64,000 bases of DNA from a virus. Lineage: Duplodnaviria; Heunggongvirae; Uroviricota; Caudoviricetes. How positions within the stretch are numbered: position 1 is the first letter of the stretch; every line of letters starts with the position of its first letter. Shown piece after piece: positions 2,444 through 46,772 of the stretch. Location: the IMG/VR virus record IMGVR_UViG_2778261035_000005; one strand, 5' to 3'. Below the pieces are notes generated by a model. The model did no database searches and was not told the DNA's origin. It saw only the letters and a list, made by a program, of their open reading frames with translations. The position numbers were made by a program, and so were the translations under genes.

Positions 2444-2569
2444 CGGTTGCAACTTATTGATAATGGCGGTCACAATTTGATTCTTTTCTATAAGAATCCG
2501 TTGATCGCCACTACTCCCCTTCCATACCTGCAATCATAACCTTAAATATCAATAGGTTATGGTTGTTTA

Positions 2570-3300
2570 TACAAATAAGAAAACAACTAAATAACAGATC
2601 AACGAAACGTCAACGCTTTCACCCGATTTGGTCTAAAAAATTGATGTTTTCACACATCACTTCTTATACCCGTAACTCTACGCAGCAGACAGCGCCACAG
2701 CGTCCAATTTTCACCACAGACGACTCAACACACCACCAACAAAAACACACGCTCAAAATCGCTCCCGTTGCGTTACATAACCATATAAACAACTTATTTT
2801 CAGGCATAACAAAACAACTAAATAACACACATGCCATTCCCCAAAACAACCAACCTCTTTATGGCAGGCTACCGAAAAGACCCACCTCTTCTTCCCAGGC
2901 TACCGGACAACCAACCTAACTTTCACAGGCAATCCGAAAACATTCATACGCGCGATACCCACGATACGCCATTCCCCAAATAGCGAAGCACACCAGAATC
3001 ACTGAAACCCCCAACGAAGCCTGTAACCGCAAGGTTTCTCTCAATCCCAAAAGACACGAAACATAACAATCACGGGAAATGCCATTACCCAATACACGAA
3101 TAACTACAAAAGCCTTTCACACACTCCAGACAAACAACTCAAACACAACAACGAAAGGAATCGCCCACCTGCCATTACTCCATACACAGAGAAGAACAAT
3201 CACCAAAACGACGAGAACACCCCATAGAAGAACCACCGCAAAACGAACGAAACCACATACACCGACAGAGAAAACAACACACCCAATTCACCAACAGAAA
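2570..3300. other. strand-asymmetric A+C-rich tract (G and T nearly absent on + strand), no credible ORF
   Basis: Direct reading: long runs of only a/c; internal repeats (aaaacaactaaataaca at ~2580 and ~2810); ORF-track proteins here are low-complexity T/P/Q/H/N/K strings. Confidence 0.8.
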
Positions 3301-3484
3301 TAGTCGCCGTATAGAACATTCTGGAAGGAGTGAGCATTAACGCCTATAGAGAGGTTGAGACAGATAAAACACAACATGTATAGCGAAGAAGCCAGGTATG
3401 TATAAGTGGGGAGGGAAGGAGGGGTGTCGCCTCCTTTTTCGTATTTATTCAACTCCTGATTTTATCCCCCCGTAACACCCCTAC

Positions 3485-3645
3485 GGTCAGCCTTCGGTCA
3501 ATACAGGGAAAAGGCTGCATCCTGCTACAGAAACGGCTGGGTTGCCTTCGGGGAACGGCTGGGGATTTTCAGGGAAACGGTCGAGTTGCCTGTGTGGATT
3601 TCGGGAAAAGGCTCGATGCCGGTTCAGGAACGGCGGCGTACCGGT
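3485..3645. repeat. iteron-like array of ~6-7 degenerate ~22-bp direct repeats (core GGGAAACGGCTGG)
   Basis: cagggaaaaggctg / cagaaacggctgggttgcc / tcggggaacggctgggg / tcagggaaacggtcgagttgcc / tcgggaaaaggctcgatgcc / tcaggaacggcggcg in tandem. Confidence 0.6.
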
Positions 3646-3953
3646 ATAGCGAGAGGGAGAGTTGCGGCTACCCACCTGTAATGTGCGGGAAGAAGAGAGG
3701 CGCTCACGTGCAGGTGAACTTACTTACCGCTGGATTCCCTCTGAATGCCCAGCTACAGCATAATTGTGCCAGACAGCCAACGGGTCACAATCGATTTCAG
3801 TAGGTTTTCGGGGAGATGATTATTCTGCCCACCAGCCACCTTCGGCTACTAAATCAGAATAATGTAAAAAGTGTACTCGGTACTGAACCTGAAAACTCAC
3901 TGCCAAAACCACATTCACCGGAATAAAATCCTTTTTCGACTGTGCGTTATTGC

Positions 3954-3990
3954 GATAATAACACCATCAAGAAAACATGTTGTTTAAGGA
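3954..3990 (+). promoter_or_regulatory. promoter/operator cassette (GATAAT + palindrome)
   Basis: gcgataataacaccatcaagaaaacatgttgtttaagga; near-identical to cassettes at 6091 and 6575. Confidence 0.55.
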
Positions 3991-3997
3991 TTGCTTT

Positions 3998-4327
3998 ATG
4001 TTTACAAATATCGACATCAACCAAATCAAGAAATTAACTCAAAAAGAGTTTGATCAGTTTTATGAGTTAGAAGGTTGGTCTTCCACTCTGATCAATTCGC
4101 GGTGGGTGCTTGAGCTGATGACTCGTGATGACGCACCTGCTTTGATGATTTGCGACATGGGTGAAGATGCTGACTTTATGGATATGAGCGAATTTTGTGT
4201 GGACACATACAACCGCAGCCAGAAGTACTACTTCACATGCGATAGCGAAAATGACGTGATTTCTAAGGTCTATCTTCACCTCGTCCAGCATTGGGACGTT
4301 CAGGAGTTTCTTGAAGTATTCGAGTAA
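3998..4327 (+). CDS. hypothetical small acidic protein (109 aa)
   Basis: ORF; ATG 3998 chosen because the track start at 3977 lies inside the operator palindrome; RBS aagga upstream. Confidence 0.55.
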   Translation: MFTNIDINQIKKLTQKEFDQFYELEGWSSTLINSRWVLELMTRDDAPALMICDMGEDADFMDMSEFCVDTYNRSQKYYFTCDSENDVISKVYLHLVQHWDVQEFLEVFE

Positions 4328-4453
4328 CCCCAACCAAAGCCAGCATTGCTGGCTTAATTTCTCTATAGCCGCAGGGAAGAACCTGCATATAGCTCATGCA
4401 CCTGATCAATATGCTTTGTAGCCGTTTTCTTACTGGTATTATTTACGCCATTG

Positions 4454-4469
4454 AGAAAACAAGTTGTTT
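4454..4469 (+). promoter_or_regulatory. operator palindrome GAAAACAAGTTGTTTA
   Basis: Perfect AAACAA-G-TTGTTT palindrome 12 nt upstream of ATG 4481. Confidence 0.5.
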
Positions 4470-4480
4470 ACGGAGTTGTG

Positions 4481-4792
4481 ATGAAAAAATCATTGGTTCT
4501 TGGTCTGGACAAAGACCAGAAGAGAAAAGAGAAGCCTACGCTGGTTGCTCAATTAACTTTGCTGGACATCGTTGCCAATGGAACCTCTATTCGTCTGTTC
4601 CGTGAAACAGCGGTGTCTTTCGATAAAAACACCTTTACTCGTTATGTAATGAATGTTCGTCGCCAGCGTGGAAAAGGCTGGGTGGCATTTCAAAGAATGT
4701 GGCCGGAACATCAGCTCGAACTGGCTTTGATGGAAGTTAACCGCGTGGCCCAGCAAGAGATTCAGAGAGCATCAGTGATGGCAATAGCCTGA
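4481..4792 (+). CDS. hypothetical protein (103 aa)
   Basis: ORF, RBS acggag; track TTG start 4451 lies in operator so ATG 4481 preferred. Confidence 0.55.
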   Translation: MKKSLVLGLDKDQKRKEKPTLVAQLTLLDIVANGTSIRLFRETAVSFDKNTFTRYVMNVRRQRGKGWVAFQRMWPEHQLELALMEVNRVAQQEIQRASVMAIA

Positions 4793-4826
4793 TAATGTGC
4801 AAGTGGTAATTAGTCGACCGTACGAC

Positions 4827-4856
4827 AGCCCCGCCATCCTTACGGGGCTTTTTTGT
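4827..4856 (+). terminator. rho-independent terminator
   Basis: agccccg...cggggct hairpin followed by TTTTTT. Confidence 0.65.
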
Positions 4857-4918
4857 ATTGTAAGTACATACTTACGATCATAGAATAGAAAAATAACCAA
4901 TACACTACGGAGAGTGAA

Positions 4919-5314
4919 ATGACCGTTAAACGCGAAAAACTGACAGTTGATGTTTACTATGCCTCTGAAACCGCCGAAGGTAAGAATGTGGCAAAAATTA
5001 CCGTTGTTACGTACAACACCGAAACTGGTGCCGAAGTCCAGGCCAGTACGATCGTGCGTAAAGGTGATGCCTCCGGCGGCGAGTACGCGACTCAATACCA
5101 GTCCATTCTCGATGCAACTGACCCGCTGCTGCTGAAAATCGAGAACTACTTCCGCCAGGTTGATGAAGAGGTGTTTGAAACCATGATGAATATGGTTAAC
5201 ACCGTATTCGCCTCCAGCCTGAATACCAACACTACCTGGATTGGTCAGTACGGCCTGCGCATTACCTCTGGCATTCCTGCCGACACCTTAATCCCTGAAA
5301 GCGTATTCGCTTAA
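4919..5314 (+). CDS. hypothetical protein (131 aa)
   Basis: ORF with RBS (ggagag) upstream and terminator downstream. Confidence 0.55.
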   Translation: MTVKREKLTVDVYYASETAEGKNVAKITVVTYNTETGAEVQASTIVRKGDASGGEYATQYQSILDATDPLLLKIENYFRQVDEEVFETMMNMVNTVFASSLNTNTTWIGQYGLRITSGIPADTLIPESVFA

Positions 5315-5323
5315 TCCTCTTTA

Positions 5324-5350
5324 AATGGCGCGTAAACCGCGCCATTTTAT
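5324..5350 (+). terminator. rho-independent terminator
   Basis: aatggcgcg-taaac-cgcgccatt hairpin then TTAT. Confidence 0.6.
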
Positions 5351-5357
5351 TATGCCC

Positions 5358-5380
5358 GATAACAATTTGTTTTCTGCCTT
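5358..5380 (+). promoter_or_regulatory. operator palindrome (AACAATTTGTTTTCTGCCTT variant, as at 1122)
   Basis: gataacaatttgttttctgcctt matches 1120-1141 nearly base for base. Confidence 0.5.
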
Positions 5381-5431
5381 ATCTGATTTGTGAAAATGAT
5401 TTCACTGAAGCAACTTAATAAGGAAACCATC

Positions 5432-5806
5432 ATGGGACTTGATATCTATATCGAGACGCAGCCTAAAAACGATCTGAATAACGAGGCATCCAGAAAGCAG
5501 GTTGCTTACTTCCGTAAGTTCAATGCGCTCGTTGGGTGGATGGAGCGCAACGTAGGTGAAGTCGAAAATTGTGAGCTTTTAGAATTAACGATGAATGACA
5601 TTTGCCTTCTGAAAGCTCATTTGATGCACATAAACGAAAGCAATTGCGAAGAGTACTTGCCTACCCGGGAAGGTTTTTTCTTCGGCAGTCAGGAGTACGA
5701 CGAAGGTTACTGGCATGATGTGGGGGAGTTGAAAGAGCTTGTGGAAGATCTGATTAAGAACCACGACTTTCACAATAATAGACTGACCTTCTGCGCCTGG
5801 TGGTAA
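5432..5806 (+). CDS. hypothetical acidic protein (125 aa)
   Basis: ORF; ATG 5432 has aaggaa RBS, upstream GTG/ATG candidates do not. Confidence 0.5.
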   Translation: MGLDIYIETQPKNDLNNEASRKQVAYFRKFNALVGWMERNVGEVENCELLELTMNDICLLKAHLMHINESNCEEYLPTREGFFFGSQEYDEGYWHDVGELKELVEDLIKNHDFHNNRLTFCAWW

Positions 5807-5808
5807 AT

Positions 5809-5952
5809 ATGGGCGATTTCAAGAAACGCCTGAAGGAGAGAGCCGAGATGGTCAGAAAGCGAAACGCCTCTTCTGTCATCAGATACGCAAGGCAGTTTAG
5901 TCGCAACAACAAATCAGTTGAGGAAAAGATCCTTAGCGTAATCGGGCGATAA
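5809..5952 (+). CDS. possible small basic peptide (47 aa), translationally coupled
   Basis: ATG overlaps stop context of previous gene; ends just before terminator hairpin; below ORF-track size cut-off. Confidence 0.3.
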   Translation: MGDFKKRLKERAEMVRKRNASSVIRYARQFSRNNKSVEEKILSVIGR

Positions 5953-5956
5953 TTAT

Positions 5957-5982
5957 TAAGACCACCAGCATTGGTGGTCTTA
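5957..5982 (+). terminator. rho-independent terminator
   Basis: aagaccaccagcattggtggtctt hairpin; paralogous to hairpin at 6429. Confidence 0.6.
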
Positions 5983-6090
5983 AATGACTTTTAATAACCT
6001 AAGGTTAATTTTAAACCTGGCTATCAACTTCCAGAACCTTTCTTGTGTATTCAGCCTGTATTAACTTCTTTTATGCCTTATCTACACTGC

Positions 6091-6122
6091 GATAATTACA
6101 CCAACAAGAAAACAACATGTTT
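6091..6122 (+). promoter_or_regulatory. promoter/operator cassette (GATAAT + palindrome)
   Basis: gcgataattacaccaacaagaaaacaacatgttt. Confidence 0.55.
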
Positions 6123-6141
6123 ACGCAGTGAGGATATGCTC

Positions 6142-6423
6142 ATGACTGATTTCACCATTACCACCAAAGCACAAAATGTATTCCTCGAATCATGGCTGGA
6201 CTTGCCGGAAACAGAACAGCAAGAAATGGATCATGTGGATTATGACGAGCAGGTAAGCACGCGATTCTTCCACTTTGAGGGCTGCGTTTACGACATTGCC
6301 GACTTCATGCGAGATGACCGCTTCCCTGAATGGCACGCCAGTTATCCACTAAACGCCTTTGCCATGCTGATGATCCGTGTGGATGATTCAGGGGATACCA
6401 TCGACATCGGTCTGCTCCACTAA
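6142..6423 (+). CDS. hypothetical small acidic protein (93 aa)
   Basis: ORF; ATG 6142 is 7 nt after RBS tgaggat; many D/E residues. Confidence 0.55.
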   Translation: MTDFTITTKAQNVFLESWLDLPETEQQEMDHVDYDEQVSTRFFHFEGCVYDIADFMRDDRFPEWHASYPLNAFAMLMIRVDDSGDTIDIGLLH

Positions 6424-6428
6424 AGGCT

Positions 6429-6452
6429 AAGGCCACCAATGCTGGTGGCCTT
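6429..6452 (+). terminator. rho-independent terminator
   Basis: aaggccaccaatgctggtggcctt hairpin. Confidence 0.6.
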
Positions 6453-6574
6453 AAATGACCATCCTGTTTCCCTCAGGCTAATAACACCAACCTCTTACCT
6501 CCAGGCAACCGACAAACCCACCTGTTCCCGTCCGGCTACCGCAACTTTCCACTTTGACGCCTTATTCGTACAAC

Positions 6575-6607
6575 GATAATTAACACCAACAAGAAAACAA
6601 TTTGTTA
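6575..6607 (+). promoter_or_regulatory. promoter/operator cassette (GATAAT + palindrome)
   Basis: acgataattaacaccaacaagaaaacaatttgtta. Confidence 0.55.
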
Positions 6608-6627
6608 TTTACGATAAGGAATTAATC

Positions 6628-7110
6628 ATGAATTTTATCGCTACTGTGAACGCACCCGCACATGGCAATATCGCTGTAACGTTCTCTGACATTGAAAAAC
6701 GAGTACTTGGTGCATGGCGCGACAATGAGACGGTAGAACTGTCAGTACAAGAAAAATGCATTATTGCACGCGACATCATTGGTAATCGTCGTTACTCGCG
6801 GGTATTTGAGAAAGCGTATGTGGTAAATTCTGGATTCGGAACGTTCGTCTTCCCGGTACGCTCCGGGCGATTCTGCCAGTCCAAGCTGATTGAGTTCGCT
6901 ACGCAGATTTCTGTCTGGATTAAAACTCAATCGTCGTTCAAATTTTCCGACGATGAAGCAGTATCGCAGGGGATGCGAATCGCCAACAATGCAATTAAAT
7001 GCAAAAATATTACGTATACCGCTGGCGTTGACACATGGAAACTGTTTTGCGCTAACTTTATGCTGAATGTATACGCAAGCAACCGCATCCACATCCTTGA
7101 TGGCGTGTAA
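6628..7110 (+). CDS. hypothetical protein (160 aa)
   Basis: ORF with RBS aagga and downstream hairpin. Confidence 0.55.
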   Translation: MNFIATVNAPAHGNIAVTFSDIEKRVLGAWRDNETVELSVQEKCIIARDIIGNRRYSRVFEKAYVVNSGFGTFVFPVRSGRFCQSKLIEFATQISVWIKTQSSFKFSDDEAVSQGMRIANNAIKCKNITYTAGVDTWKLFCANFMLNVYASNRIHILDGV

Positions 7111-7115
7111 CTGAG

Positions 7116-7141
7116 AAGAGGGCCAGAAACGGCCCTTTCTC
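7116..7141 (+). terminator. terminator-like hairpin
   Basis: gggcc-agaaac-ggccc with flanking AGA/TCT. Confidence 0.45.
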
Positions 7142-7144
7142 TAT

Positions 7145-7290
7145 AGACACCAGCTGCCGCAGGGAAATTTTCAGAAACGGCGAGGAACGTATTCATGAGC
7201 CGACGGGAAACGGCCAGGATTTTTTCGGGAAACGGCTGCATTCGCCTTTATGTAGAAAAAAACATCGGGAAGCTGGTGGAATCCAACCAG
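7145..7290. repeat. second iteron-like array (GGGAAACGGC units)
   Basis: cagggaaatttt / cagaaacggcgagg / acgggaaacggccagg / tcgggaaacggctgcattcgcc / atcgggaagctgg. Confidence 0.55.
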
Positions 7291-7655
7291 CGGTTGTCGG
7301 ACAGGCGAGCGGGGAAAATTATGATGACTTTCGTCGCCTGAGACATCCAGATTTCTTTCGTAGCATAATCACATACGTGATTAAGTGGTGTGATTATGTG
7401 AAAAATCACGCGCACATAATACGCGAGCGGATACGGAACAAAACAAAATGCCGATCCGCGCCGACAAATAAACGCGGATCACATAGCAAGACTAAAAGCC
7501 AATGATTAACCATACGCTATAGCGCAATATAACGCGTTTTAAGCGCGTTAATGTGTTAAGTAATGGGTATGTACTGGTAAGGATATAAAAGCGCGTCTAT
7601 GGCGTTATTTGGGTGCTTATTTTTATGTTGTTGGAGTGAGTTAAAGACAATAAAA

Positions 7656-7722
7656 AACGCGCCATCATTGGCGCGTTATGGTGGGAGTATTGGAAACGAA
7701 AAAAAGCGCCCATAGTGGGCGC
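7656..7722. terminator. pair of hairpin terminators (bidirectional) at 3' end of leftward operon
   Basis: aacgcgcc-atcatt-ggcgcgtt and gcgccca-tag-tgggcgc flanked by A-run / T-run. Confidence 0.6.
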
Positions 7723-7728
7723 TCGATT

Positions 7729-7959
7729 TTATTTGTGTAAACTGATTTTAAATCCCATTTCTACAAACGCTTTTAACATTAAAAATATATCAGCGTCGTT
7801 CACGTCTGCTTTTTTTCGCTCCTGGTCGCTCAATAAGTCAATTTTGCGCGTCGTTTCATCTATAAGCTCGACTGCGCGCCCAGCGTAACCAGCGATCCCA
7901 GCGATGCGATTAACATAATATTCATTATGGACGTTAACGCCAGCGATAAGAACAAACAT
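7729..7959 (-). CDS. hypothetical protein (76 aa)
   Basis: ORF, last gene of leftward operon. Confidence 0.45.
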   Translation of the reverse strand: MFVLIAGVNVHNEYYVNRIAGIAGYAGRAVELIDETTRKIDLLSDQERKKADVNDADIFLMLKAFVEMGFKISLHK

Positions 7960-7980
7960 GATTAAGCTCCTTAAAAAAAA

Positions 7981-8184
7981 TTAAATAGAATTTTGAAGTT
8001 TTCCGATTAATGCGCTTAAACGTAAGTATTCACGTTTGCGCTTGCAATCTCGCTTGCTGTTAAGCAAATCAGAAAACGTAAAATTTAATTGGTCGCGTTG
8101 CGCGATTAAATCATCGATTAATTCCAGTTTATAAGCGCGATACTTTGCGCGATATTCCGCGCGGATCTTGTCATAGCTGACCAT
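7981..8184 (-). CDS. hypothetical protein (about 68 aa)
   Basis: ORF; start moved to internal ATG 8184 with aaggag RBS, because hairpin 8202-8220 overlaps the track start. Confidence 0.45.
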   Translation of the reverse strand: MVSYDKIRAEYRAKYRAYKLELIDDLIAQRDQLNFTFSDLLNSKRDCKRKREYLRLSALIGKLQNSI

Positions 8185-8201
8185 TTTTAAAGCTCCTTTA
8201 A

Positions 8202-8220
8202 AGCGCCCATAGTGGGCGCT
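8202..8220. terminator. intercistronic hairpin (same sequence as 7706-7722)
   Basis: agcgcccatagtgggcgct repeated verbatim. Confidence 0.5.
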
Positions 8221-8232
8221 TGATTCCATTAA

Positions 8233-8883
8233 TTACGCTTTGAAAGCATCAGCTAAATAATTGTAGAAATCATTTTTAATGAAGCGATATTGCTGAGTAC
8301 CAGCTTTCGCGCTCCCAGCTCCTTTGACTTTTTCAACAAGTCCAAGACGTTCGCAAAGATTGATCAACTGGTTGGCTTGAGTATAGCCAGCGTCCAATTT
8401 AATTTCACACGCTTTTTTAGCTTCATTCATTAAATCGAAAACAGCGCCATTGGTGAACGTGTCGATCTCGTCGTTAATCATATCGATTAAAGCGAATACA
8501 CGAGATCCTGACATATCAGCGATGGAATAAACGCATTTACCAGATTTAATTGATTTAACCAGATAAACCAGTTTTTCCAGAGAATAACTATTAGTCATTG
8601 CATCACGGAAAAATACTTCTGGCGCTTGTTTGCTTGCTTTAATCGCATAGTAGAAAACAGAGCATAATTTTTCGTCTTCTACTGCGTTTACGACGTTGTT
8701 GATGAAGTAAGCAAGTTTAGTGGTCGCAGCTTGCATATTTGCTTTGTCTGCTTTAGTGTGCGTACCATTTTTATAATGTTCGTTATATGTTTGAGTTGCC
8801 AGATCTGCTTTTTCGCGCAGTTCATCGGATACAATAGATGCAGCTTCAATGATGGATTTTTTAGAAATGATAATGTTAGCCAT
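8233..8883 (-). CDS. hypothetical protein (216 aa)
   Basis: ORF with RBS aggaaa. Confidence 0.55.
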   Translation of the reverse strand: MANIIISKKSIIEAASIVSDELREKADLATQTYNEHYKNGTHTKADKANMQAATTKLAYFINNVVNAVEDEKLCSVFYYAIKASKQAPEVFFRDAMTNSYSLEKLVYLVKSIKSGKCVYSIADMSGSRVFALIDMINDEIDTFTNGAVFDLMNEAKKACEIKLDAGYTQANQLINLCERLGLVEKVKGAGSAKAGTQQYRFIKNDFYNYLADAFKA

Positions 8884-9478: not shown

Positions 9479-10003
9479 TCAAAAAGGCAAAATTCGTTCA
9501 ACCCAATCGAACAAAACAACTATTTTTCTACCGTTCTCGACACGTAGTGTAACCTGACAAGCATCTGCGCCTGCTGACACCCCCTCAATTTCACGGCCAT
9601 CCGCCATGTACACCCTTATAGATTTGTTTGCTTTGTAGGCTTGGTTGCAAATTGCAAAAAAATCGCGGCGTGATGGCCGATTATCGACATAATCAGGGTG
9701 AACTGTTAGTCGACCTTTGAAATCGTGAGCGATACTGTCAACCACACCTGATTCAATTGTACTAATGCGTTCAAGTGGGAGCCTTATACGATTTTCTTTG
9801 TCAAAAGGGGCTGGGCAAAGGTCAACTTTGTTACGAGATGGCATGAGGCCATAAACGTACATGCAAAACGCCTGGCCATCTTCGAGAGTGACCCTTACAG
9901 GAATTTGTTCTCTGCGCCAGAACATCAGTAGTTTTTCAACGTTAGTGTAATCTCGCGGCCAGAGTTCAGCTTGGATACCGTAGGTAATATCTTTGGTTGT
10001 CAT
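9479..10003 (-). CDS. hypothetical protein
   Basis: ORF; start trimmed to ATG 10003 to avoid overlap with upstream lipoprotein gene. Confidence 0.45.
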   Translation of the reverse strand: MTTKDITYGIQAELWPRDYTNVEKLLMFWRREQIPVRVTLEDGQAFCMYVYGLMPSRNKVDLCPAPFDKENRIRLPLERISTIESGVVDSIAHDFKGRLTVHPDYVDNRPSRRDFFAICNQAYKANKSIRVYMADGREIEGVSAGADACQVTLRVENGRKIVVLFDWVERILPF

Positions 10004-12404: not shown

Positions 12405-13102
12405 TGGATTGTAGCAATAAAATGGATGTAAAAATCACGATTTTGCAGGTTGATGTTGCCAACCTTCGCCCGAATACCTGGAACACCAATTCGGTTGGTG
12501 CGCAGAATTTTGAAAAACTGAAAGGTTCTATCGAAAAATTGGGCTTTTTTAAGCCAATTTTGGCTCGTGAACTTGAAGATGGATTTTTTGAAATCCTCGG
12601 CGGCGAACATCGCTGGCGTGCTGCTATTGAGCAAGGAATTTCAACGGTTCCGGTGCTTTCTGTGGGCAAAATTAGCGATGTCGTAGCTAAACAGATGTCA
12701 CTGGTGGACAACGAGCGATACGGTGAAGACGACCAAATCGCATTGCAACGCTTCATTGAAGAAATTCAGTCAGAACTTGACTATCAACTGTCTGAAATCG
12801 CCCCGTATGACGACGAAATCTCGATGGTTTTAGCAAAAGAGGCGGCAATCGACCTTGAAGCACTGGAGGCGTTGTCTCGTGGTAGTGATGAGCCTGTCGA
12901 TACCGACAAACGAGAGAAAACCGAACGTGTGGGTGCGGAACATCAGACCATGCGCTTCAAAGTAACTTTCGATGCGTCAGATCGTGTTGCAGAAACCATA
13001 AAAAACATCATCAAAGAGCAGGCTATTAACACCGGTAATGAAATGGAGAACGCTGGTGAGGCTCTGGTGTGGCTGGTCGACTACTACAAGGAGCGTATGT
13101 AA
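12404..13102 (+). CDS. ParB/Srx-like nuclease-domain protein
   Basis: ParB N-terminal domain signature ...FEILGGEHRWRAA...; GTG 12404 or ATG 12422. Confidence 0.7.
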   Translation: MDCSNKMDVKITILQVDVANLRPNTWNTNSVGAQNFEKLKGSIEKLGFFKPILARELEDGFFEILGGEHRWRAAIEQGISTVPVLSVGKISDVVAKQMSLVDNERYGEDDQIALQRFIEEIQSELDYQLSEIAPYDDEISMVLAKEAAIDLEALEALSRGSDEPVDTDKREKTERVGAEHQTMRFKVTFDASDRVAETIKNIIKEQAINTGNEMENAGEALVWLVDYYKERM

Positions 13103-13770
13103 TGACCAAAAAGTTTGAAATCGTATATCGCGACCCGGCAGATCTTATTCCCTATGAGATGAATGCCAAAAAGCATGATGAACAGCAGATCCGAGATCTA
13201 GCCGCAGCCATTAAAAAGCGCGGATTTGACCAGCCAATTACGGTCGATAAGAACGACGTAATTATTACTGGCCACGGCCGCCGTGAGGCTGCAATTTTTG
13301 CTGGACTTGAGCGCGTACCGGTTATTGTTCGCGATGATCTCAGTGATGACGAGGTTCGTGCGAAGCGCCTTGAAGATAACCGACTTGCCAGCATTGATTA
13401 CGATGCAATTAAGCTACAGAAAGAGCTTGAGTCGCTTGTTCTGGACGATATCGAGGTTTTCGGCTTTGAAGAGCGTGAGTTGAATGTTCTCGTTGGCAGC
13501 ATGACAGAAGAAATGGACACCGACTCGCTAGTTATCGATCTTGGCGAAGAAACTAAACGACAGAAGGATGAACACACCGAGATCAGTCGTGAAGTTGCAG
13601 CGGAAGAAGTACGTGTTGTCGACGTATTGGGCTTTAAAACGCTTCCTGCTGGCTCTGCCATTGTTGTTGGTGATTTGCTTGCCCACATGGAAGAAATGAC
13701 GGGAGAAAGCGGGGTAGACGCATTTGTGGCATATGCGGAGAAGATCTCTTCCGGGGAGATGGCTGCATGA
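13102..13770 (+). CDS. second ParB/Srx-like domain protein
   Basis: ...VIITGHGRREAAIFAG... ParB-like motif; start overlaps previous stop (taATGa). Confidence 0.7.
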   Translation: MTKKFEIVYRDPADLIPYEMNAKKHDEQQIRDLAAAIKKRGFDQPITVDKNDVIITGHGRREAAIFAGLERVPVIVRDDLSDDEVRAKRLEDNRLASIDYDAIKLQKELESLVLDDIEVFGFEERELNVLVGSMTEEMDTDSLVIDLGEETKRQKDEHTEISREVAAEEVRVVDVLGFKTLPAGSAIVVGDLLAHMEEMTGESGVDAFVAYAEKISSGEMAA

Positions 13771-14432
13771 GCAAATACATCATCAACGTATCGTTTCAGA
13801 CACGCGTAAATAAAACCACGCGCACGTTGGAAATCGCTGAGTCGTTCGGGCTTGGCCTGGACGAAAAAGAGTGGACGCTTTACGACAATCTGGAGCTGGA
13901 AGTGAAGCAGGGCGATGTGGTGTACATCACCGGCCAATCCGGTTCCGGCAAATCCGTTGTGCTGCGCGAGTTGCAACGACAGATGAAGGATGAAGGGCTG
14001 TCTGTAGCCTCCATCGATGATTTTACCTTCGATAATGAGGTTAACGTCATCGATCAGTTGGGCAAAACGACCAGCGATGCGCTTGGGTTGTTATCTATGG
14101 CTGGTCTGAACGATGCATATCTGTTTGTTCGCAAGCCTTCTGAAATGTCAGACGGTCAGAAATATCGTCTCAAGATTGCCAAACTGATTGAGTCAGGCGC
14201 TAAAGTGTGGGCTGCTGACGAGTTCGGCGCTGTTCTCGACCGTGTAACCGCTCAGGTTGTGGCGTCTAACCTCCAGCGTGCCGCTCGAAAGGTTGGTGCG
14301 ACGGTAATGGTGGCGACGACTCACGAAGACCTGAAGAACGCGCTGCGCCCGGATATGCAGATCACCAAGCACTACAAAGAACGCGTGAAGGTGGAATATC
14401 ACAATGGTAGTCATGATGAGGTCCATTCATGA
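13767..14432 (+). CDS. ABC-type P-loop ATPase
   Basis: Walker A GQSGSGKS, ABC-signature-like MSDGQKYR, Walker B VWAADEF, H-loop ATTHE; overlaps neighbours by 4 nt. Confidence 0.7.
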   Translation: MSKYIINVSFQTRVNKTTRTLEIAESFGLGLDEKEWTLYDNLELEVKQGDVVYITGQSGSGKSVVLRELQRQMKDEGLSVASIDDFTFDNEVNVIDQLGKTTSDALGLLSMAGLNDAYLFVRKPSEMSDGQKYRLKIAKLIESGAKVWAADEFGAVLDRVTAQVVASNLQRAARKVGATVMVATTHEDLKNALRPDMQITKHYKERVKVEYHNGSHDEVHS

Positions 14433-38142: not shown

Positions 38143-41100
38143 ATGTGGTACAGGGAAGGTACTATCACATTTACACAGGGTAGCAATACCCTCGTTGGTG
38201 TTGGAACAGCCTGGAACGTAACAGCTAATGGTGTGTTGCCGGGCATGATCGTCATTGGCCCCGACAATAAGCTGTATGAGATCAAGCGCGTAACCAGTGA
38301 TACAAACATTGTTCTCTCAGAACCTTATACCGGCGAAACTCAGTCTGAAGTTCCGTGCCGAATCATTACGACCTATGAAGGTGACTTAACGCAGTTTAGC
38401 GCGCGCTTTACTGCACTAATGTCGCGTATGTCGGCTGATTCCAAGTCTATGCGCAGTTGGTTGACTGCTCTTGATGAGGTGACAATCGAGCGTGAAGACG
38501 GTACAGAAGTGACCGTTAAGCCGCTAATGCAGATCGTCAACGAGCACAACGAAAACGTTGAGTGGTATAAAAATAACACTGACGCGATTGATGCTGCTGG
38601 CGACAAAGCTCGTGAGGCGGCGGCCAGTGCTGCCGCAGCGGCAGAAAGCGCCAATACCGCTGGAGAAAAAGCATCTCAAGCGTCTCAAAGTGCATCCGCT
38701 GCGGCATCCTCACAAAGTGCTGCAAGTGCGAGTGCAACTGCTGCGAAAAGATCTGAAACGAACGCAGAGGCCGCCAAAGAAGCGGCAGCAGAATCAGCGT
38801 CTGTAGCATCGACCAAAGCATCGGAGGCTGCAATATCTGCGTCCAGTGCCTCTGCATCTAAGGATGCAGCCAAAGCATCAGAGACTAACGCTTCATCGAG
38901 TGCAAACGCGGCTGCATCATCGGCAACAGAAGCTGCAAATTCCTCTAAGGCAGCAAAAACGTCAGAGGCAAACGCAAAAGCATCTGAAACGGCAGCCGAA
39001 CAGAGTGCATCGTCTGCAAACAGTTCGAAATCTGCGGCAGAAGCGTCAGCAAGTGCAGCCTCAGCAAGTGCGGATAGTGCTTCATCAAGTGCAACAGCGG
39101 CAGGAAAATCTGCGGATAGCGCATTGTCATCCGCGACAACAGCTACCACAAAAGCGACAGAGGCGACGAGTCAGGCTACAGCTGCTAAAAATTCAGCATC
39201 GGCAGCAAAAACCTCTGAAACAAATGCAAAGACCTCAGAAGACAATGCTGCTTCCTCTAAGGCGGCAGCTGCTGAATCTGCAAGTTCTGCGTCTGCATCA
39301 GCCACCTCAGCATCCGCTTCAAAAGATGAGGCGACCAAGCAGGCATCAGCAGCGAAGAGCAGTGCTTCAACGGCATCCACGAAGGCAACAGAGGCGGCAG
39401 GCAGTGCGACAGCTGCATCTCAGAGCAAAACTGCTGCTGAATCCGCTGCGACCCGTGCGGAAGCTGCCGCTGATCGTGCTGAAGAGATTGCCGGTGCAGT
39501 TGCGATGGAAGACGCAAGCCTTACCACCAAAGGTGTTGTGAAACTTAGCAGTGCTGTCGACAGCACCAGTGAATCGCTGGCCGCAACGCCAAAAGCAGTT
39601 AAAGCAGCCAATGACAATGCGAATAGCAGGGTGCCATCTAACCGAAAAGTTAACGGTAAAGCACTGACTGCGGATATCACATTAACGCCGAAAGATATTG
39701 GTACTTTAAATTCAGTAACGATGTCTTTCTCTGGCGGGGCTGGGTGGTTCAAACTGGCTACGGTTACCATGCCACAAGCGAGTTCCATCGTTTACATCGC
39801 ATTGATTGGTGGCGCTGGTTACAACGTCGGCTCCCCACATCAGGCAGGCATTTCAGAACTGGTTCTACGAGCAGGCAATGGAAACCCCAAAGGGATTACA
39901 GGTGCTTTGTGGAAGCGTACAGCTGTCGGATTAACGAATTTCGCCTGGATCAACACATCCGGCGATACATATGATATTTACGTTGAGATTGGCAATTATG
40001 CGACGAGTGTAAATATCCATTGGGATTGTACTGCAAATGCGACAGTTTCTATTTATACATCGCCAACATATTCAGCGAGTAAGCCTTCCAGCGTTACCGA
40101 TGGTGTTGTTTATACGATGTATAGCACACATCAGAAACCGACGCCGTTAGATATTGGTGCACTGCCAACAACCGGAGGAACAGTTTCAGGTCCGTTGTCT
40201 GTTACTGGTGGGATCACCGGAACATTAAATGGTAATGCAAGTACAGCAACGAAATTACAGACGGCAAGATCTATCGGTGGAGTTGGTTTCGACGGTTCTG
40301 CCAATATTAATCTTCCAGGTGTAAACACTACGGGTAATCAGAACACCACTGGTAATGCCGCAACTGCTACAAAACTACAGACGGCAAGAACTATCGGCGG
40401 CGTGAGCTTTGATGGTACTGCAAATATTAATTTGCCAGGTGTTAATACGACTGGTAATCAGAATACAACAGGTAATGCGGCTACTGCTACGAAGTTGCAG
40501 ACTGCGCGTACTATTAATGGGGTGTCGTTTGACGGTTCGGCAAATATTTCCTTGTCACCAGCAAATATAGGTTGCCCAGCATCTCCTACTGGTTGGTTAA
40601 CTACAGGAAGTAATGGCGGAGCAATAACAACAGCCCAGTTAGTGACGTTATTGCAAAATAATGGAGCCTTTAACACAAAGTCATGGATTGCTCGATGTGC
40701 GTGGGCCTATGCCAATAGTGCAACCATACCAAATAGTGAAACTGGTTGTGGCGTTATTCCATTGGCAGGAGCTGTTATAGAGGTATTTAATAACGGTAGT
40801 AGCTCAAACAATTATACGATCCGTATAACAACGGCCACAACGACGAGTGTCTCTGGTGCTCTCACTAATGCGGAGTTTATCTATGTATTTAATGGCACAG
40901 ATTATTCTCCAGGATGGCGAAGAGTATATAACACGAAAAACAAACCAACAGCCTCTGATGTCGGTGCATTACCTCTTACCGGTGGTACATTATCTGGAGG
41001 TTTGACATCTTCTGGCGAGATCATTTCAAAATATGCAAATGGTTTCCGCATTGCTTACGGTAGCTTTGGGTTCTTTATCCGTAATGATGGGTCGAACACA

Positions 41101-46019: not shown

Positions 46020-46772
46020 ATGCATTCGTTAGTATTTGCATTTAAAAACATACTCAAGAATGTTATAAACATACTAGGGATGTTAAATATTTTTTTGTCT
46101 GTGAGGGTGAGGAGAAAAGATATAAAAGATAAATTAAAGGAACTTAACAAAGAAAAAGAACAATTAAAAAGCGAAGAAATTATTATTGATTTATACAAGA
46201 AAAAACTCGCATCTAGCAAGGGGAAAGCTAATGATAAAATCAAAGGAAAAATAATTCACTATATTATTGCTAGAGAGTTGGGGAATGATCCTGATAATGA
46301 AGATTTGCGACATAATCTTTTTACAAAGATAAAAGAATCAGAAGAACAGGTTGAAGTTCTGGTTCATCAAAGAGAAGTAAGTGAGCAGGCGAACAAAAAA
46401 GAAACGGTTGTCAATTTATTTTTATTGTATGAAAAAAATAAATTGTTTAAAGCTAAGGGGTTGGCTGTGTTTCTTATAGTTATAAACTTAATTATAGTTG
46501 CGACTCTCGATCTTCCAGCTTGGTCATTGATTATAAGTTTTTTTATTCTCTCTTTGATTATGTTGAAAGATCAGATACTTACTATTCGTGTCTCTAAAGG
46601 ATATTTTGGCACAAGTGCGTATGAAGCGGTTCAATTGCTTAAATTCATCAGAGAAAATTCAGACAAATTTGACTCAGATGATAATGACGGTAGCCCACGA
46701 CGGATATTGAATCCGAAGGGAACAACAAAAAAATCAGACAACCTATTCGATAAAGGGTGGCAAAATGTTTGA
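46020..46772 (+). CDS. AT-rich gene: membrane protein (about 250 aa)
   Basis: N-terminal TM, K/E-rich coiled-coil segment, two more TM helices; composition visibly more AT-rich than flanks. Confidence 0.55.
   Translation: MHSLVFAFKNILKNVINILGMLNIFLSVRVRRKDIKDKLKELNKEKEQLKSEEIIIDLYKKKLASSKGKANDKIKGKIIHYIIARELGNDPDNEDLRHNLFTKIKESEEQVEVLVHQREVSEQANKKETVVNLFLLYEKNKLFKAKGLAVFLIVINLIIVATLDLPAWSLIISFFILSLIMLKDQILTIRVSKGYFGTSAYEAVQLLKFIRENSDKFDSDDNDGSPRRILNPKGTTKKSDNLFDKGWQNV

What the first reader, a model, noticed from the sequence alone, without database searches (positions are those of the whole stretch)
7116..7722. Non-coding hub with a second iteron array and multiple hairpins between the two divergent gene blocks
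About 600 bp without a convincing ORF, containing GGGAAACGGC repeats (7145-7290), palindromes around 7385-7440 (tcacatacgtgatta / tgtgattatgtga), an inverted repeat gatccgcg-N12-cgcggatc (7453-7480) and two strong hairpins. It could be an origin, a control region or a small RNA locus.
Basis: seen in the sequence. Interest (0 to 1): 0.45.

Follow-up and report, generated by a model that had tools for sequence, protein, structure and literature searches.

The report
Orphan iteron array at terminator junction
The 600-bp gene-free stretch is where two gene blocks of an SSU5/pMT1-type phage-plasmid run into each other and stop, and it also holds a strongly conserved, evenly spaced repeat array that looks like a phage replication-origin binding site but has no known binding protein.

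Summary
The window is an E. coli SSU5/pHCM2/pMT1-family phage-plasmid. The 618-bp gap (7111-7728) is ORF-free and unannotated. It keeps a similar length (about 550-645 bp) in hundreds of relatives from Yersinia pestis to Klebsiella. Its ends are intrinsic terminators: 7117-7138 on the + strand, and 7656-7677 and 7704-7724 on the - strand. The left third is a phased array of the 10-bp repeat SRGRAAMGGY. A second array with six copies at 22-bp spacing lies at 3506-3634. These two arrays hold 10 of the 13 matches in the 110-kb genome. They are not the plasmid Rep iterons, which are ACCGCTGACAGCATA and lie next to rep. In unrelated phages, near-identical 22-bp arrays (GGAAACGGC-N6-GCC) sit inside lambda-O-like replication-initiator genes. 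My best reading (confidence 0.4) is DNA iterons of the phage backbone, serving as a lytic origin or a replication-control pair, with the binding protein unknown. No O-like protein, DnaA boxes or long AT-rich element were found. The rival reading is RNA operator sites for the neighbouring FljA-family protein, which I show to be a tandem Hfq-like protein. I found no support for a conserved structured small RNA.

The parts
6628..7110 (+). Last gene of the rightward block (160 aa, function unknown). Its stop codon lies 14 bp before the first repeat copy.
   Evidence: ORF. PHROG phrog_1641, E 2.5e-96, no function assigned. AF2 model has pLDDT 89 and no PDB fold match. No similarity to the O-like N-terminal domain.
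7117..7144 (+). Hairpin GGGCC-AGAAAC-GGCCC followed by TTTCTCT. It is the terminator-like end of the rightward block. Its loop and 3' arm carry repeat copy 7124-7133 (CAGAAACGGC).
   Evidence: Fold -13.6 kcal/mol, z -3.65. The hairpin is kept in all lineages through a register shift, GGGGC-TGGAAAC-GCCCC.
7161..7246 (+). Iteron-like array 2. Strong copies lie at 7172-7181, 7205-7214 and 7227-7236. Weaker in-phase GGRA sites lie at 7161, 7183 and 7216. The last unit has the dyad GGC(7234-7236)-N7-GCC(7244-7246).
   Evidence: TTTTCGGGAAACGGC is invariant in 12 lineages. The 22-bp spacing is invariant, and the other spacings are 33/34 and 46/48 bp. The GRAA cores lie at 7164, 7174, 7185, 7207, 7218 and 7229, about one helical turn apart (read).
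7247..7291 (.). Short AT-rich patch (7247-7265), a degenerate repeat copy GGGAAGCTGG (7267), and the palindrome GCTGGT/ACCAGC (7272-7291).
   Evidence: Sequence. GCCTTTATGTAGAAAAC is conserved across lineages.
7340..7420 (.). Lineage-specific module. It holds a promoter-like site GAGACA-18-CATAAT (7340-7369, + strand) overlapped by the palindromes TAATCAC-N4-GTGATTA (7366-7383), CATAATCACA/TGTGATTATG and ATTATGTG/CACATAAT. This could be an operator and promoter, but nothing has been tested.
   Evidence: Only the 14-mer TGTGATTATGTGAA is shared with other lineages, and it sits at a different position there.
7440..7481 (-). Hairpin GATCCGCG-N12-CGCGGATC with a T-run on the - strand, which makes it terminator-like. 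It is present only in the E. coli lineage.
   Evidence: Five of its 8 pairs break in other lineages (helix 4).
7562..7574 (.). Conserved 13-mer AATGGGTATGTAC of unknown role.
   Evidence: Nearly invariant in alignment A1.
7656..7677 (-). Second intrinsic terminator of the leftward block: a 9-bp stem followed by TTTTTTATTG on the - strand.
   Evidence: The stem is invariant in 12 lineages while the 4-nt loop varies.
7690..7699 (+). A further repeat-like copy, TTGGAAACGA, lying between the two terminators.
   Evidence: GAAACG is invariant in alignment A1.
7704..7724 (.). Bidirectional intrinsic terminator directly after the stop codon of gene 7729-7959.
   Evidence: The stem is invariant in 12 lineages.
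7729..7959 (-). Last gene of the leftward block (76 aa, function unknown).
   Evidence: phrog_1585, E 2.6e-39.
3506..3634 (+). Array 1: six copies of the same motif at 3506, 3528, 3550, 3572, 3603 and 3625. Units are 22 bp with GGC-N5/6-GCC. The array lies in a second ORF-poor gap.
   Evidence: The spacing 22, 22, 22, 31, 22 is conserved in distant lineages. The gap is conserved in 717 plasmid records.
9479..10003 (-). FljA-family gene (174 aa) built of two tandem Hfq/Sm-like domains. It is the candidate binder in the rival RNA-level reading.
   Evidence: Pfam Flag1_repress, E 1.5e-84. AF2 model pLDDT 82. The top 50 Foldseek PDB matches listed are all Hfq, TM 0.67-0.86.

Best explanation
The gap 7111-7728 is the conserved, gene-free junction where a rightward block of small genes and a short leftward block (helicase ... 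FljA-like ... 76-aa gene) converge in an SSU5/pHCM2/pMT1-family phage-plasmid.

Shown. Both ends are intrinsic terminators that stop the two blocks. The left third, together with a second site 3.6 kb upstream, is a phased array of a 10-bp direct repeat. The unit is 22 bp, GGRAAMGGC-N6-GCC. The array belongs to the conserved phage backbone and not to the plasmid replicon.

Inferred. The arrays act as double-stranded DNA. They are iterons: cooperative binding sites on one face of the helix for a phage-encoded protein that has not been identified. They work like the iterons of a lambda-type origin, or like the P4 ori/crr pair. That would make them the cis-acting sites of the phage's own lytic replicon or of its control. 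The element encodes its own DnaB-like helicase, primase and Pol III alpha.

The variable middle part (7290-7655) is a lineage-specific module of promoter-like and operator-like palindromes and weak terminators. I cannot assign it a role.
For: Identity and conservation. The window is 97-99.8% identical to E. coli SSU5-like phage-plasmids. The gap is found in 770 plasmid records, including Y. pestis pMT1, Salmonella, Klebsiella and Enterobacter, and in all 12 phage records that match, SSU5 itself among them. It is unannotated in every record fetched.

Convergent genes and terminators.

The repeat. Ten of the 13 genome-wide matches fall in the two arrays, and all ten are on the + strand. TTTTCGGGAAACGGC is invariant across lineages that are about 66% identical elsewhere. 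The spacing 22, 22, 22, 31, 22 is conserved although the spacer sequences have diverged, and one lineage shortens 31 to 22, so both stay near whole helical turns.

Not plasmid Rep iterons. The rep gene lies more than 40 kb away and is flanked by about 13 copies of ACCGCTGACAGCATA. The arrays are the same in IncFIB and rep_cluster_488 relatives.

Analogy to known origins. A scan of viral contigs for three GRAAMGG cores at 22-bp spacing found about 30 non-SSU5 contigs with at least three repeat copies. In 12 of them the array lies in the middle of a same-strand ORF of 330-520 aa. All 10 such ORFs scanned match PHROG families for replication initiation (O-like or other), DnaD-like helicase loader or primosomal protein. 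Three more arrays lie in or beside replication-initiation or primosomal genes. Klebsiella phage ST405-OXA48phi1.2 carries seven copies of ATGGAAACGGC-N6-GCCGAAT in the gene that occupies the lambda-O position after cI-cro-cII, followed by an AT-rich repeat. The unit design GGRAACGGC-N6-GCC is shared with the SSU5 arrays.

Own replisome. The genome encodes DnaB-like helicase, primase and DnaE but has no annotated lytic initiator or origin.
Against: No O-like or other recognisable initiator is encoded. This was tested with phmmer, with domain profiles and with tblastn on the gaps. The adjacent 160-aa protein has an unmatched fold.

The arrays lie outside any gene and just after terminator-like hairpins, at a point where transcription converges. 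That is not a typical place for an origin.

Neither gap has DnaA boxes. Only about 20-30 bp of AT-rich DNA flanks the arrays. GC skew is uninformative.

The match to O-gene iterons was found with a pattern built from the SSU5 motif, so part of the likeness is selection. No DNA homology extends beyond the repeat units.

Helical phasing is only approximate: the spacings 46/48 bp are out of phase.

All copies lie on the sense strand of the upstream genes, and an RNA-binding protein gene lies 1.8 kb away, so action at the RNA level is not excluded.

There are no experimental data for this locus in the literature I could reach.
Confidence: 0.4

Rival explanations
1. RNA-level operator or sponge. 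The arrays would be read as + strand RNA, either as read-through past the leaky upstream hairpins or from a promoter of their own. They would be multi-site binding platforms for the conserved FljA-family protein encoded at 9479-10003. This protein is a tandem Hfq-like RNA binder that, in Salmonella, blocks translation of fliC by binding the operator region of its mRNA. In the phage-plasmid it would control phage transcripts after transcription or be titrated by the arrays.
For: The gene matches Pfam Flag1_repress at E 1.5e-84. It is core to the family, including non-motile hosts such as Y. pestis and Klebsiella. The model shows two helix-plus-five-strand Sm domains, and the top 50 Foldseek PDB matches listed are all Hfq. 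[quoted passage not shown] The E. coli fliC 5' UTR contains GGGUGGAAACCC. The first array-2 copy sits in the loop of a conserved GC hairpin, (U)GGAAAC. The 12-mer TGAGCCGACGGG is shared between array 2 and the fliC 5' UTR. All copies are on the sense strand. The hairpin upstream of array 1 keeps its pairs through G-C/G-U/A-U changes that work only on the + strand.
Against: The arrays are not in a 5' UTR beside a start codon. The next gene after array 1 has its own promoter-like element about 300 nt downstream. The 12-mer is confined to the E. coli lineage, and an unrelated 12-mer match to the same UTR occurs elsewhere in the window by chance. The exact 22-nt spacing and the 31-to-22 change fit DNA helical phasing better than an RNA ring. 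There is no covariation for hairpins that would present the motif. The phage protein is only 37-39% identical to the more distant Flag1_repress homologues found, one of them beside a probable flagellin gene. Look-alike arrays elsewhere are DNA origin iterons.
Confidence: 0.15
2. A DNA-level site with a non-replicative role. The arrays would bind a phage protein that acts as a transcriptional roadblock or insulator behind the terminators, as a silencing or partition loading site (for example for the two ParB_N proteins at 12422-13770), or as a packaging recognition site. The two arrays bracket a 3.6-kb cluster of small genes, several of them preceded by a copy of the same promoter-like element.
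For: Both arrays start just after terminator-like hairpins at the end of + strand units. They bracket genes at 3977-7110, four of which carry the repeated promoter-like element TGCGATAATAACACC...AAACA. Two ParB_N proteins and an ABC-type ATPase are encoded nearby. One look-alike array (L176) lies beside a weak match to a small terminase subunit. From memory, the lambda cosB R sites share the core GGAAACG.
Against: There is no positive link to any of these proteins. TerL is of the T4 type, and the putative small subunit has no Nu1 domain. The partition genes differ between lineages while the arrays do not (and the IncFIB typing). ParB sites are usually palindromic. Most look-alike arrays are linked to replication initiators.
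Confidence: 0.25
3. The gap encodes a small regulatory RNA, or a type I toxin-antitoxin-like pair, in its central part (7340-7655). The repeats would be incidental.
For: There are promoter-like sites at 7298-7325 and 7340-7369 on the + strand, and several terminator-like hairpins on both strands: 7 found against 2.5 expected. There is a weak Rfam Hrs1 hit at 7649-7716, E 0.017. A small hydrophobic ORF lies at 7599-7715.
Against: The central part is a mosaic with different sequence in different lineages. There is no covariation above shuffles. The Rfam hit is far below the gathering score and consists of the two terminators. The small ORF shrinks to 9 codons in some lineages (read from A1). The Y. 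pestis RNA-seq catalogue lists two intergenic sRNAs on pMT1, and both map elsewhere. This reading also leaves the invariant arrays unexplained.
Confidence: 0.1

Closest known systems
Lambda-type phage origins: iterons inside the O-like initiator gene. Here these are the phrog_9773/391 initiators, for example Klebsiella phage ST405-OXA48phi1.2.
   Same: Both have four to seven direct repeats on one strand with a 22-bp period. They share the core GGAAACGGC and a partial dyad GGC-N6-GCC, and a short AT-rich stretch lies on the 3' side.
   Different: The SSU5-family arrays are intergenic, lie behind terminators and come as two arrays 3.6 kb apart. The genome encodes no detectable O-like protein. 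The AT-rich patch is only about 20 bp. No homology extends beyond the repeat units.
Satellite phage-plasmid P4 ori and crr (recalled from the literature, not tested here).
   Same: Two clusters of the same short repeat lie several kilobases apart in a phage-plasmid. In P4 both are needed in cis and both are bound by the initiator.
   Different: The P4 repeats are octamers bound by the alpha primase-helicase. No alpha-like protein was identified here, and no function has been tested.
Iterons of theta-replicating plasmids (P1 incC/incA, F, R6K, and RepFIB of pMT1).
   Same: Both are direct repeats about two helical turns apart. A second array at a distance is reminiscent of copy-control (handcuffing) arrays.
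   Different: The element's own Rep gene has different iterons right beside it. The arrays persist unchanged where the replicon type differs. There are no DnaA boxes.
The FljA operator in the fliC mRNA leader.
   Same: An FljA-family gene is a conserved neighbour. The motif core GGAAAC also occurs in the fliC leader hairpin, and one E. coli-lineage unit shares 12 nt with the leader.
   Different: The fliC leader has a single site in a 5' UTR. Here there are 4-6 regularly spaced copies that are not next to a start codon, and the sequence match is lineage-specific and within the range of chance.
Tandem intrinsic terminators at convergent operon ends.
   Same: GC-rich hairpins with U-tracts lie directly after the stop codons, and one is bidirectional.
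   Different: Nothing unusual. This part of the finding is ordinary.

Membership tests
Iterons of the resident plasmid replicon | The repeats flank or adjoin the cognate rep gene and have the same sequence as the repeats at rep. | tested here: not met
   The RepB-family gene lies at 74163-75377 of NZ_AP022089.1, more than 40 kb away, and is flanked by about 13 copies of ACCGCTGACAGCATA. The motif RGRAAACGGC is absent from that 50-kb half of the genome.
Iterons of the resident plasmid replicon | The repeats co-vary with the replicon type. | tested here: not met
   The arrays are the same in IncFIB relatives and in rep_cluster_488 relatives.
Iteron-type origin in general | At least 3 direct repeats of 17-22 bp spaced about two helical turns apart. 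| tested here: met
   Array 1 has spacings 22, 22, 22, 31, 22. Array 2 has 48, 33, 22. The 22-bp spacing is conserved across lineages.
Iteron-type origin in general | An adjacent AT-rich unwinding element and DnaA/IHF sites. | tested here: not met
   No DnaA box with at most 1 mismatch lies in either gap. Only a 20-30 bp AT-rich patch is present. IHF sites were checked only by eye.
Lambda-type phage origin | The iterons are embedded in the middle of an O-like initiator gene. | tested here: not met
   The arrays are intergenic. tblastn of O-like proteins against both gaps matches only the repeat units.
Lambda-type phage origin | A cognate O-like initiator is encoded by the element. | tested here: not met
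   phmmer and hmmsearch of O-like proteins and domain profiles against all ORFs of the 110-kb genome give no hit better than E 0.02. A divergent initiator cannot be excluded.
Lambda-type phage origin | Iteron unit with partial dyad symmetry. | tested here: inconclusive
   GGC-N5-7-GCC is present in about half of the units, for example 3528, 3572, 3603 and 7227.
Replication origin (functional definition) | Replication initiates at the site. | not testable with these tools
   This needs marker-frequency analysis, 2D gels or an ori-cloning assay.
Intrinsic (Rho-independent) terminator | A GC-rich hairpin followed by a U-tract, downstream of a stop codon on the same strand. | tested here: met
   Met for 7656-7677 (-), 7704-7724 (both strands) and 7117-7138 (+, with a weak U-tract). 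The stems of the first two are invariant in 12 lineages.
Known RNA family (Rfam 15) | A score at or above the family's gathering threshold. | tested here: not met
   The best hit is Hrs1 at 27.4 bits against a gathering score of 56.4. Gap 1 gives no hit.
Conserved structured small RNA | Base pairs maintained by compensatory changes across lineages. | tested here: not met
   Only one pair shows a double change, and the covariation score of 0.035 equals the shuffles. Whole-gap alifold favours neither strand.
FljA operator RNA | An FljA-family protein is encoded by the element. | tested here: met
   Pfam Flag1_repress, E 1.5e-84.
FljA operator RNA | The site lies in the 5' leader of the repressed mRNA. 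| tested here: not met
   Array 2 is followed by no + strand gene. Array 1 lies about 340 nt upstream of the next start codon, with a promoter-like element in between.
FljA operator RNA | Binding of the protein to the RNA. | not testable with these tools
   This needs EMSA or CLIP.
CsrA-titrating sRNA (CsrB-like) | GGA is present in every repeat, preferably in hairpin loops. | tested here: not met
   The conserved copies CAGAAACGGC (7124, 7172, 3528) lack GGA. The invariant part is RAAACGG, not GGA.

The most novel reading that the evidence does not exclude
The two arrays are RNA platforms for the FljA-family tandem-Hfq protein, not DNA sites. Read-through transcripts carrying 4-6 regularly spaced GGRAAMGG sites would wrap around or titrate an Sm-like oligomer. 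This would give SSU5/pHCM2/pMT1 phage-plasmids a post-transcriptional switch between lysis and lysogeny or copy-number control, derived from the flagellar phase-variation repressor. A second unexcluded variant is that the arrays are initiator-less 'orphan' lambda-type iterons that capture or titrate the O proteins of co-resident lambdoid phages.
Probability: 0.15. Interest if true: 0.8.

Novelty: new variant of a known kind. Interest (0 to 1): 0.45.

Why it matters
SSU5-like phage-plasmids are common in clinical Enterobacteriaceae, and the family includes Y. pestis pMT1 and S. Typhi pHCM2. In the literature I could reach, their lytic origin, immunity and copy control are essentially unmapped. 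A pair of invariant, unannotated repeat arrays in the conserved backbone is a concrete and cheap-to-test candidate for the missing cis-acting site. If the arrays are the lytic origin or a control site, they give a handle for curing these elements, engineering them or typing them. If the binder turns out to be the FljA-like tandem-Hfq protein, that would be a new kind of phage regulatory circuit. The terminator part of the finding is ordinary.

Tried and rejected
1. Plasmid Rep iterons. Rejected: the rep gene has different repeats.

2. Known RNA families. Rfam on both gaps gives nothing above threshold.

3. Published Y. pestis sRNAs. The two intergenic pMT1 entries in the catalogue, sR082 and sR083, map near ymt and IS elements, not at this locus.

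4. Structured RNA. RNAalifold on 25-47 sequences on both strands, and pair counts, show no covariation signal.

5. Coding potential. The small ORFs in the gap are not conserved (A1).

6. DnaA boxes. None in either gap.

7. GC skew. It is dominated by gene orientation and is uninformative.

8. A split O gene, with the upstream 160-aa protein as an O-like DNA-binding domain. HHalign probability is 0.1%. The confident AF2 model has no PDB neighbour.

9. An O-like initiator elsewhere in the genome. Not found.

10. Decay of an O gene in the gaps. tblastn hits only the repeats, and there is no DNA homology beyond the units.

11. Lambda cosB/Nu1-like packaging site, a lead recalled from memory. TerL is of the T4 type, and the putative TerS matches phrog_867 ('DNA binding domain') but has no Pfam match, so no Nu1 domain.

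12. CsrA sponge. Conserved copies lack GGA.

13. fliC-leader mimicry. The 12-mer match exists, but a chance 12-mer match also occurs elsewhere in the window, and the match is lineage-specific.

14. Group-A O-like genes in E. coli genomes, to test a hijacking idea. No megablast match.

15. Literature on the SSU5 origin, packaging or FljA. Nothing relevant could be found. The primary FljA papers (PMC1347349, PMC156219) and the 2026 heteroresistance preprint were not retrievable.
Full report
WHAT THE WINDOW IS. Window 6600-8300 is 97-98% identical to Escherichia phages CMS-2020a, PhiR41_1 and Cyrano. The gap itself is 99.8% identical to plasmid pWP4-S18-ESBL-07_2. These are SSU5-like phage-plasmids. 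The gap sequence is recognisable in 770 plasmid records: Klebsiella 312, Escherichia 220, Enterobacter 90, Yersinia 55 (which includes pMT1) and Salmonella 49. It is also found in all 12 phage records that match, including SSU5 itself. In every record I fetched, the stretch between a 160-aa gene and a gene of about 70 aa carries no annotation and is about 550-645 bp long.

CHECK OF THE OBSERVATION. The geometry is wrong, however. Gene 6628-7110 is on the + strand and gene 7729-7959 is on the - strand. Both are real PHROG families, and both end at the gap, so the blocks converge.

The 'two strong hairpins' at 7656-7677 and 7704-7724 carry U-tracts on the - strand, and the second also has one on the + strand. 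Their stems are invariant in 12 lineages, while the loop of the first varies. They are tandem terminators of the leftward block. The hairpin at 7117-7138 (-13.6 kcal/mol, z -3.65) closes the rightward block.

The GATCCGCG-N12-CGCGGATC hairpin and the palindromes at 7364-7420 are real but lineage-specific. In other lineages 5 of the 8 pairs of that hairpin break, and the whole stretch from about 7290 to 7560 is a recombinant mosaic. The small ORFs in the gap are not conserved (A1).

THE REPEAT. GGGAAACGGC occurs at 7205 and 7227. CAGAAACGGC occurs at 7124 (inside the first hairpin) and at 7172. Written as [CG][AG]G[AG]AA[AC]GG[CT], the motif has 12 + strand hits and 1 - strand hit in the whole 110-kb genome, against 3.4 expected per strand. 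Ten of the hits form two clusters: 3506, 3528, 3550, 3572, 3603, 3625, and 7124, 7172, 7205, 7227.

TTTTCGGGAAACGGC is invariant in lineages that are only about 66% identical across the gap. The spacing 22, 22, 22, 31, 22 of array 1 is kept exactly in lineages whose spacer sequences have diverged. In one Klebsiella lineage the 31 becomes 22. In array 2 the GRAA cores at 7164, 7174, 7185, 7207, 7218 and 7229 lie one or two helical turns apart (read). This is selection on a binding site and on its geometry, not on a fold: RNAalifold finds almost no compensatory change in the array.

WHAT THE REPEAT IS NOT.
- It is not the iteron set of the plasmid replicon. The RepB-family gene lies more than 40 kb away and is flanked by about 13 copies of ACCGCTGACAGCATA. 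Relatives typed IncFIB and rep_cluster_488 carry the same arrays.
- It has no DnaA boxes.
- It matches no Rfam family.
- It is not a reported Y. pestis sRNA.
- It is not a CsrA sponge, because conserved copies lack GGA.

WHAT IT RESEMBLES. I scanned IMG/VR for three GRAAMGG cores at 22-bp spacing. Besides array 1 of the SSU5 family, about 30 unrelated contigs carry arrays with at least three copies of a very similar core. Examples are ATGGAAACGGCACAAACGCCGA (5 copies), TGGAAACGGCAATATCGCCGA (5-6 copies) and NGGGAACGGCAGAATTGCCGA (3-4 copies).

In 12 of these contigs the array lies in the middle (about aa 125-200) of a same-strand ORF of 330-520 aa. All 10 such ORFs that I scanned match PHROG families for replication initiation (O-like or other), DnaD-like helicase loader or primosomal protein. 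Three further arrays lie in or beside replication-initiation or primosomal genes.

A named example is Klebsiella phage ST405-OXA48phi1.2. The gene at the lambda-O position, after cI, cro and cII, holds seven copies of ATGGAAACGGC-N6-GCCGAAT at 22- or 45-bp spacing, followed by AT-rich ATACAGATC repeats. This is the classic lambda arrangement of an origin inside the O gene (textbook knowledge). The SSU5 units share the core, the period and a partial dyad GGC-N6-GCC.

The likeness has limits. It was found with a pattern derived from the SSU5 motif. No DNA homology extends beyond the units. The SSU5-type genome encodes no detectable O-like protein. I also tested whether the 160-aa gene that ends 14 bp before array 2 is a detached O-like DNA-binding domain. 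HHalign gives a probability of 0.1%, and a confident model (pLDDT 89) has no PDB neighbour. That idea is therefore not supported.

THE NEIGHBOURING FljA-LIKE GENE. The conserved 'transcriptional regulator' at 9479-10003 is a full-length Flag1_repress (FljA) family member, E 1.5e-84. It is 37-39% identical to the more distant Flag1_repress homologues found, one of which lies next to a probable flagellin gene. Its two halves align with each other. The AF2 model shows the helix-plus-five-strand pattern twice, and the top 50 Foldseek PDB matches listed are all Hfq.

FljA represses fliC by binding the operator region of its mRNA (PMC4122451). The fliC leader contains GGGUGGAAACCC and shares TGAGCCGACGGG with array 2. 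However, an unrelated 12-mer match to the same leader also occurs elsewhere in the window, and the array match is restricted to the E. coli lineage. I keep this as a rival reading at the RNA level. It is attractive because the gene is retained in non-motile hosts. It is weakened by the spacing evidence and by the position of the arrays outside any leader.

MECHANISM I COMMIT TO (confidence 0.4). The ends of the gap terminate the two converging blocks; this is shown. The arrays are DNA iterons of the phage backbone, bound cooperatively by an unidentified phage protein. They act as the origin, or as a paired control site, of the phage's own replicon, in the way lambda ori iterons or the P4 ori/crr pair work. 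This is inferred from motif, phasing, conservation, independence from the plasmid replicon, the presence of a phage replisome without a known origin, and the analogy above.

A non-replicative DNA role (roadblock, silencing or partition site, packaging site) gets 0.25. The FljA/RNA reading gets 0.15. A central small RNA gets 0.1.

NOVELTY AND INTEREST. Terminators at a convergent junction are ordinary. The arrays are a new variant of a known kind: lambda-type-looking iterons that are intergenic, duplicated 3.6 kb apart and without a recognisable initiator, in a widespread and clinically relevant family. I found no annotation or literature for them. Interest is 0.45: a clear, cheap, testable lead rather than a surprise in itself.

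Noticed in passing
window 9479-10003 (- strand): The family-wide 'transcriptional regulator' belongs to the FljA (Flag1_repress) family and is built of two tandem Hfq/Sm-like domains (AF2 pLDDT 82; the top 50 Foldseek PDB matches listed are all Hfq). It is retained in phage-plasmids of non-motile hosts (Klebsiella, Y. pestis pMT1), so its target there cannot be flagellin mRNA.
   Followed up: partly
window 3506-3634 and the ORF-poor stretch about 2444-3977: This is a second and larger array (six copies, 22-bp period) of the same motif. It lies in a roughly 1.5-kb stretch with no annotated gene in the near-identical RefSeq plasmid (whose PLSDB gene table may be incomplete). About 680 bp of it (3300-3980) is conserved in 717 plasmid records, though not reported among the Yersinia hits. 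Just upstream lie CC(U/A/G)CGG and GCC-UUCG-GGC elements that look like UNCG tetraloops on the + strand.
   Followed up: partly
window 3947-3990, 4454-4470, 6088-6114, 6581-6599: A repeated element TTATTGCGATAATAACACCAWCAAGAAAACAWGTTGTTT precedes four of the small + strand genes. It looks like an extended -10 promoter (TGCGATAAT) followed by an AAACA..TGTTT palindrome. It recurs several times per genome in distant relatives. It may be a family of co-regulated early promoters with an operator.
   Followed up: partly
NZ_AP022089.1 73.6-75.4 kb (L135 13459-13997 and 15150-15212), outside the window: These are the plasmid's true iterons: about 13 copies of ACCGCTGACAGCATA flanking the RepB-family gene.
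   Followed up: yes
window 7196-7207 against the E. coli K-12 fliC leader (L138): The 12-mer TGAGCCGACGGG and the nearby ACGGCGA are shared between array 2 and the 5' end of the fliC mRNA leader, but only in the E. coli lineage of the phage-plasmid. This could be chance or host mimicry.
   Followed up: partly
L235 (Klebsiella phage ST405-OXA48phi1.2, MK416007.1 6116-7210) and IMG/VR loci L147, L152, L167, L171, L178, L212, L219: A group of lambdoid phages (at least one infecting Klebsiella) has O-position genes annotated only as 'hypothetical'. These genes carry 5-7 internal iterons TGGAAACGGC-N6-GCCGA followed by AT-rich GATC-containing repeats. They are unannotated lambda-type origins.
   Followed up: partly
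window 46042-46171: A 21-bp repeat TTAAAAACATACTCAAGAATG (2.2 copies) and a 13-bp repeat lie in a 32% GC stretch. The stretch sits just downstream of the ParA-like gene and its small partner, at the start of the first of three unknown genes that precede the DnaB-like helicase gene. It is an alternative candidate for a centromere or origin.
   Followed up: no
window 40231-40548: A 120-nt tandem repeat of about 2.4 copies and 76-78% identity lies inside a large tail protein gene.
   Followed up: no
window 7599-7715 (+ strand): A small ORF (38 aa, hydrophobic N-terminus MALFGCLFLCCW) overlaps the terminator region. A related frame gives 23 aa in some lineages but only 9 aa in others, so it is probably not a gene.
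   Followed up: partly
window 12422-14432: Two consecutive ParB_N-domain genes and an ABC-type ATPase gene start the long rightward block that leads to the terminase gene. Their DNA target is unknown.
   Followed up: no
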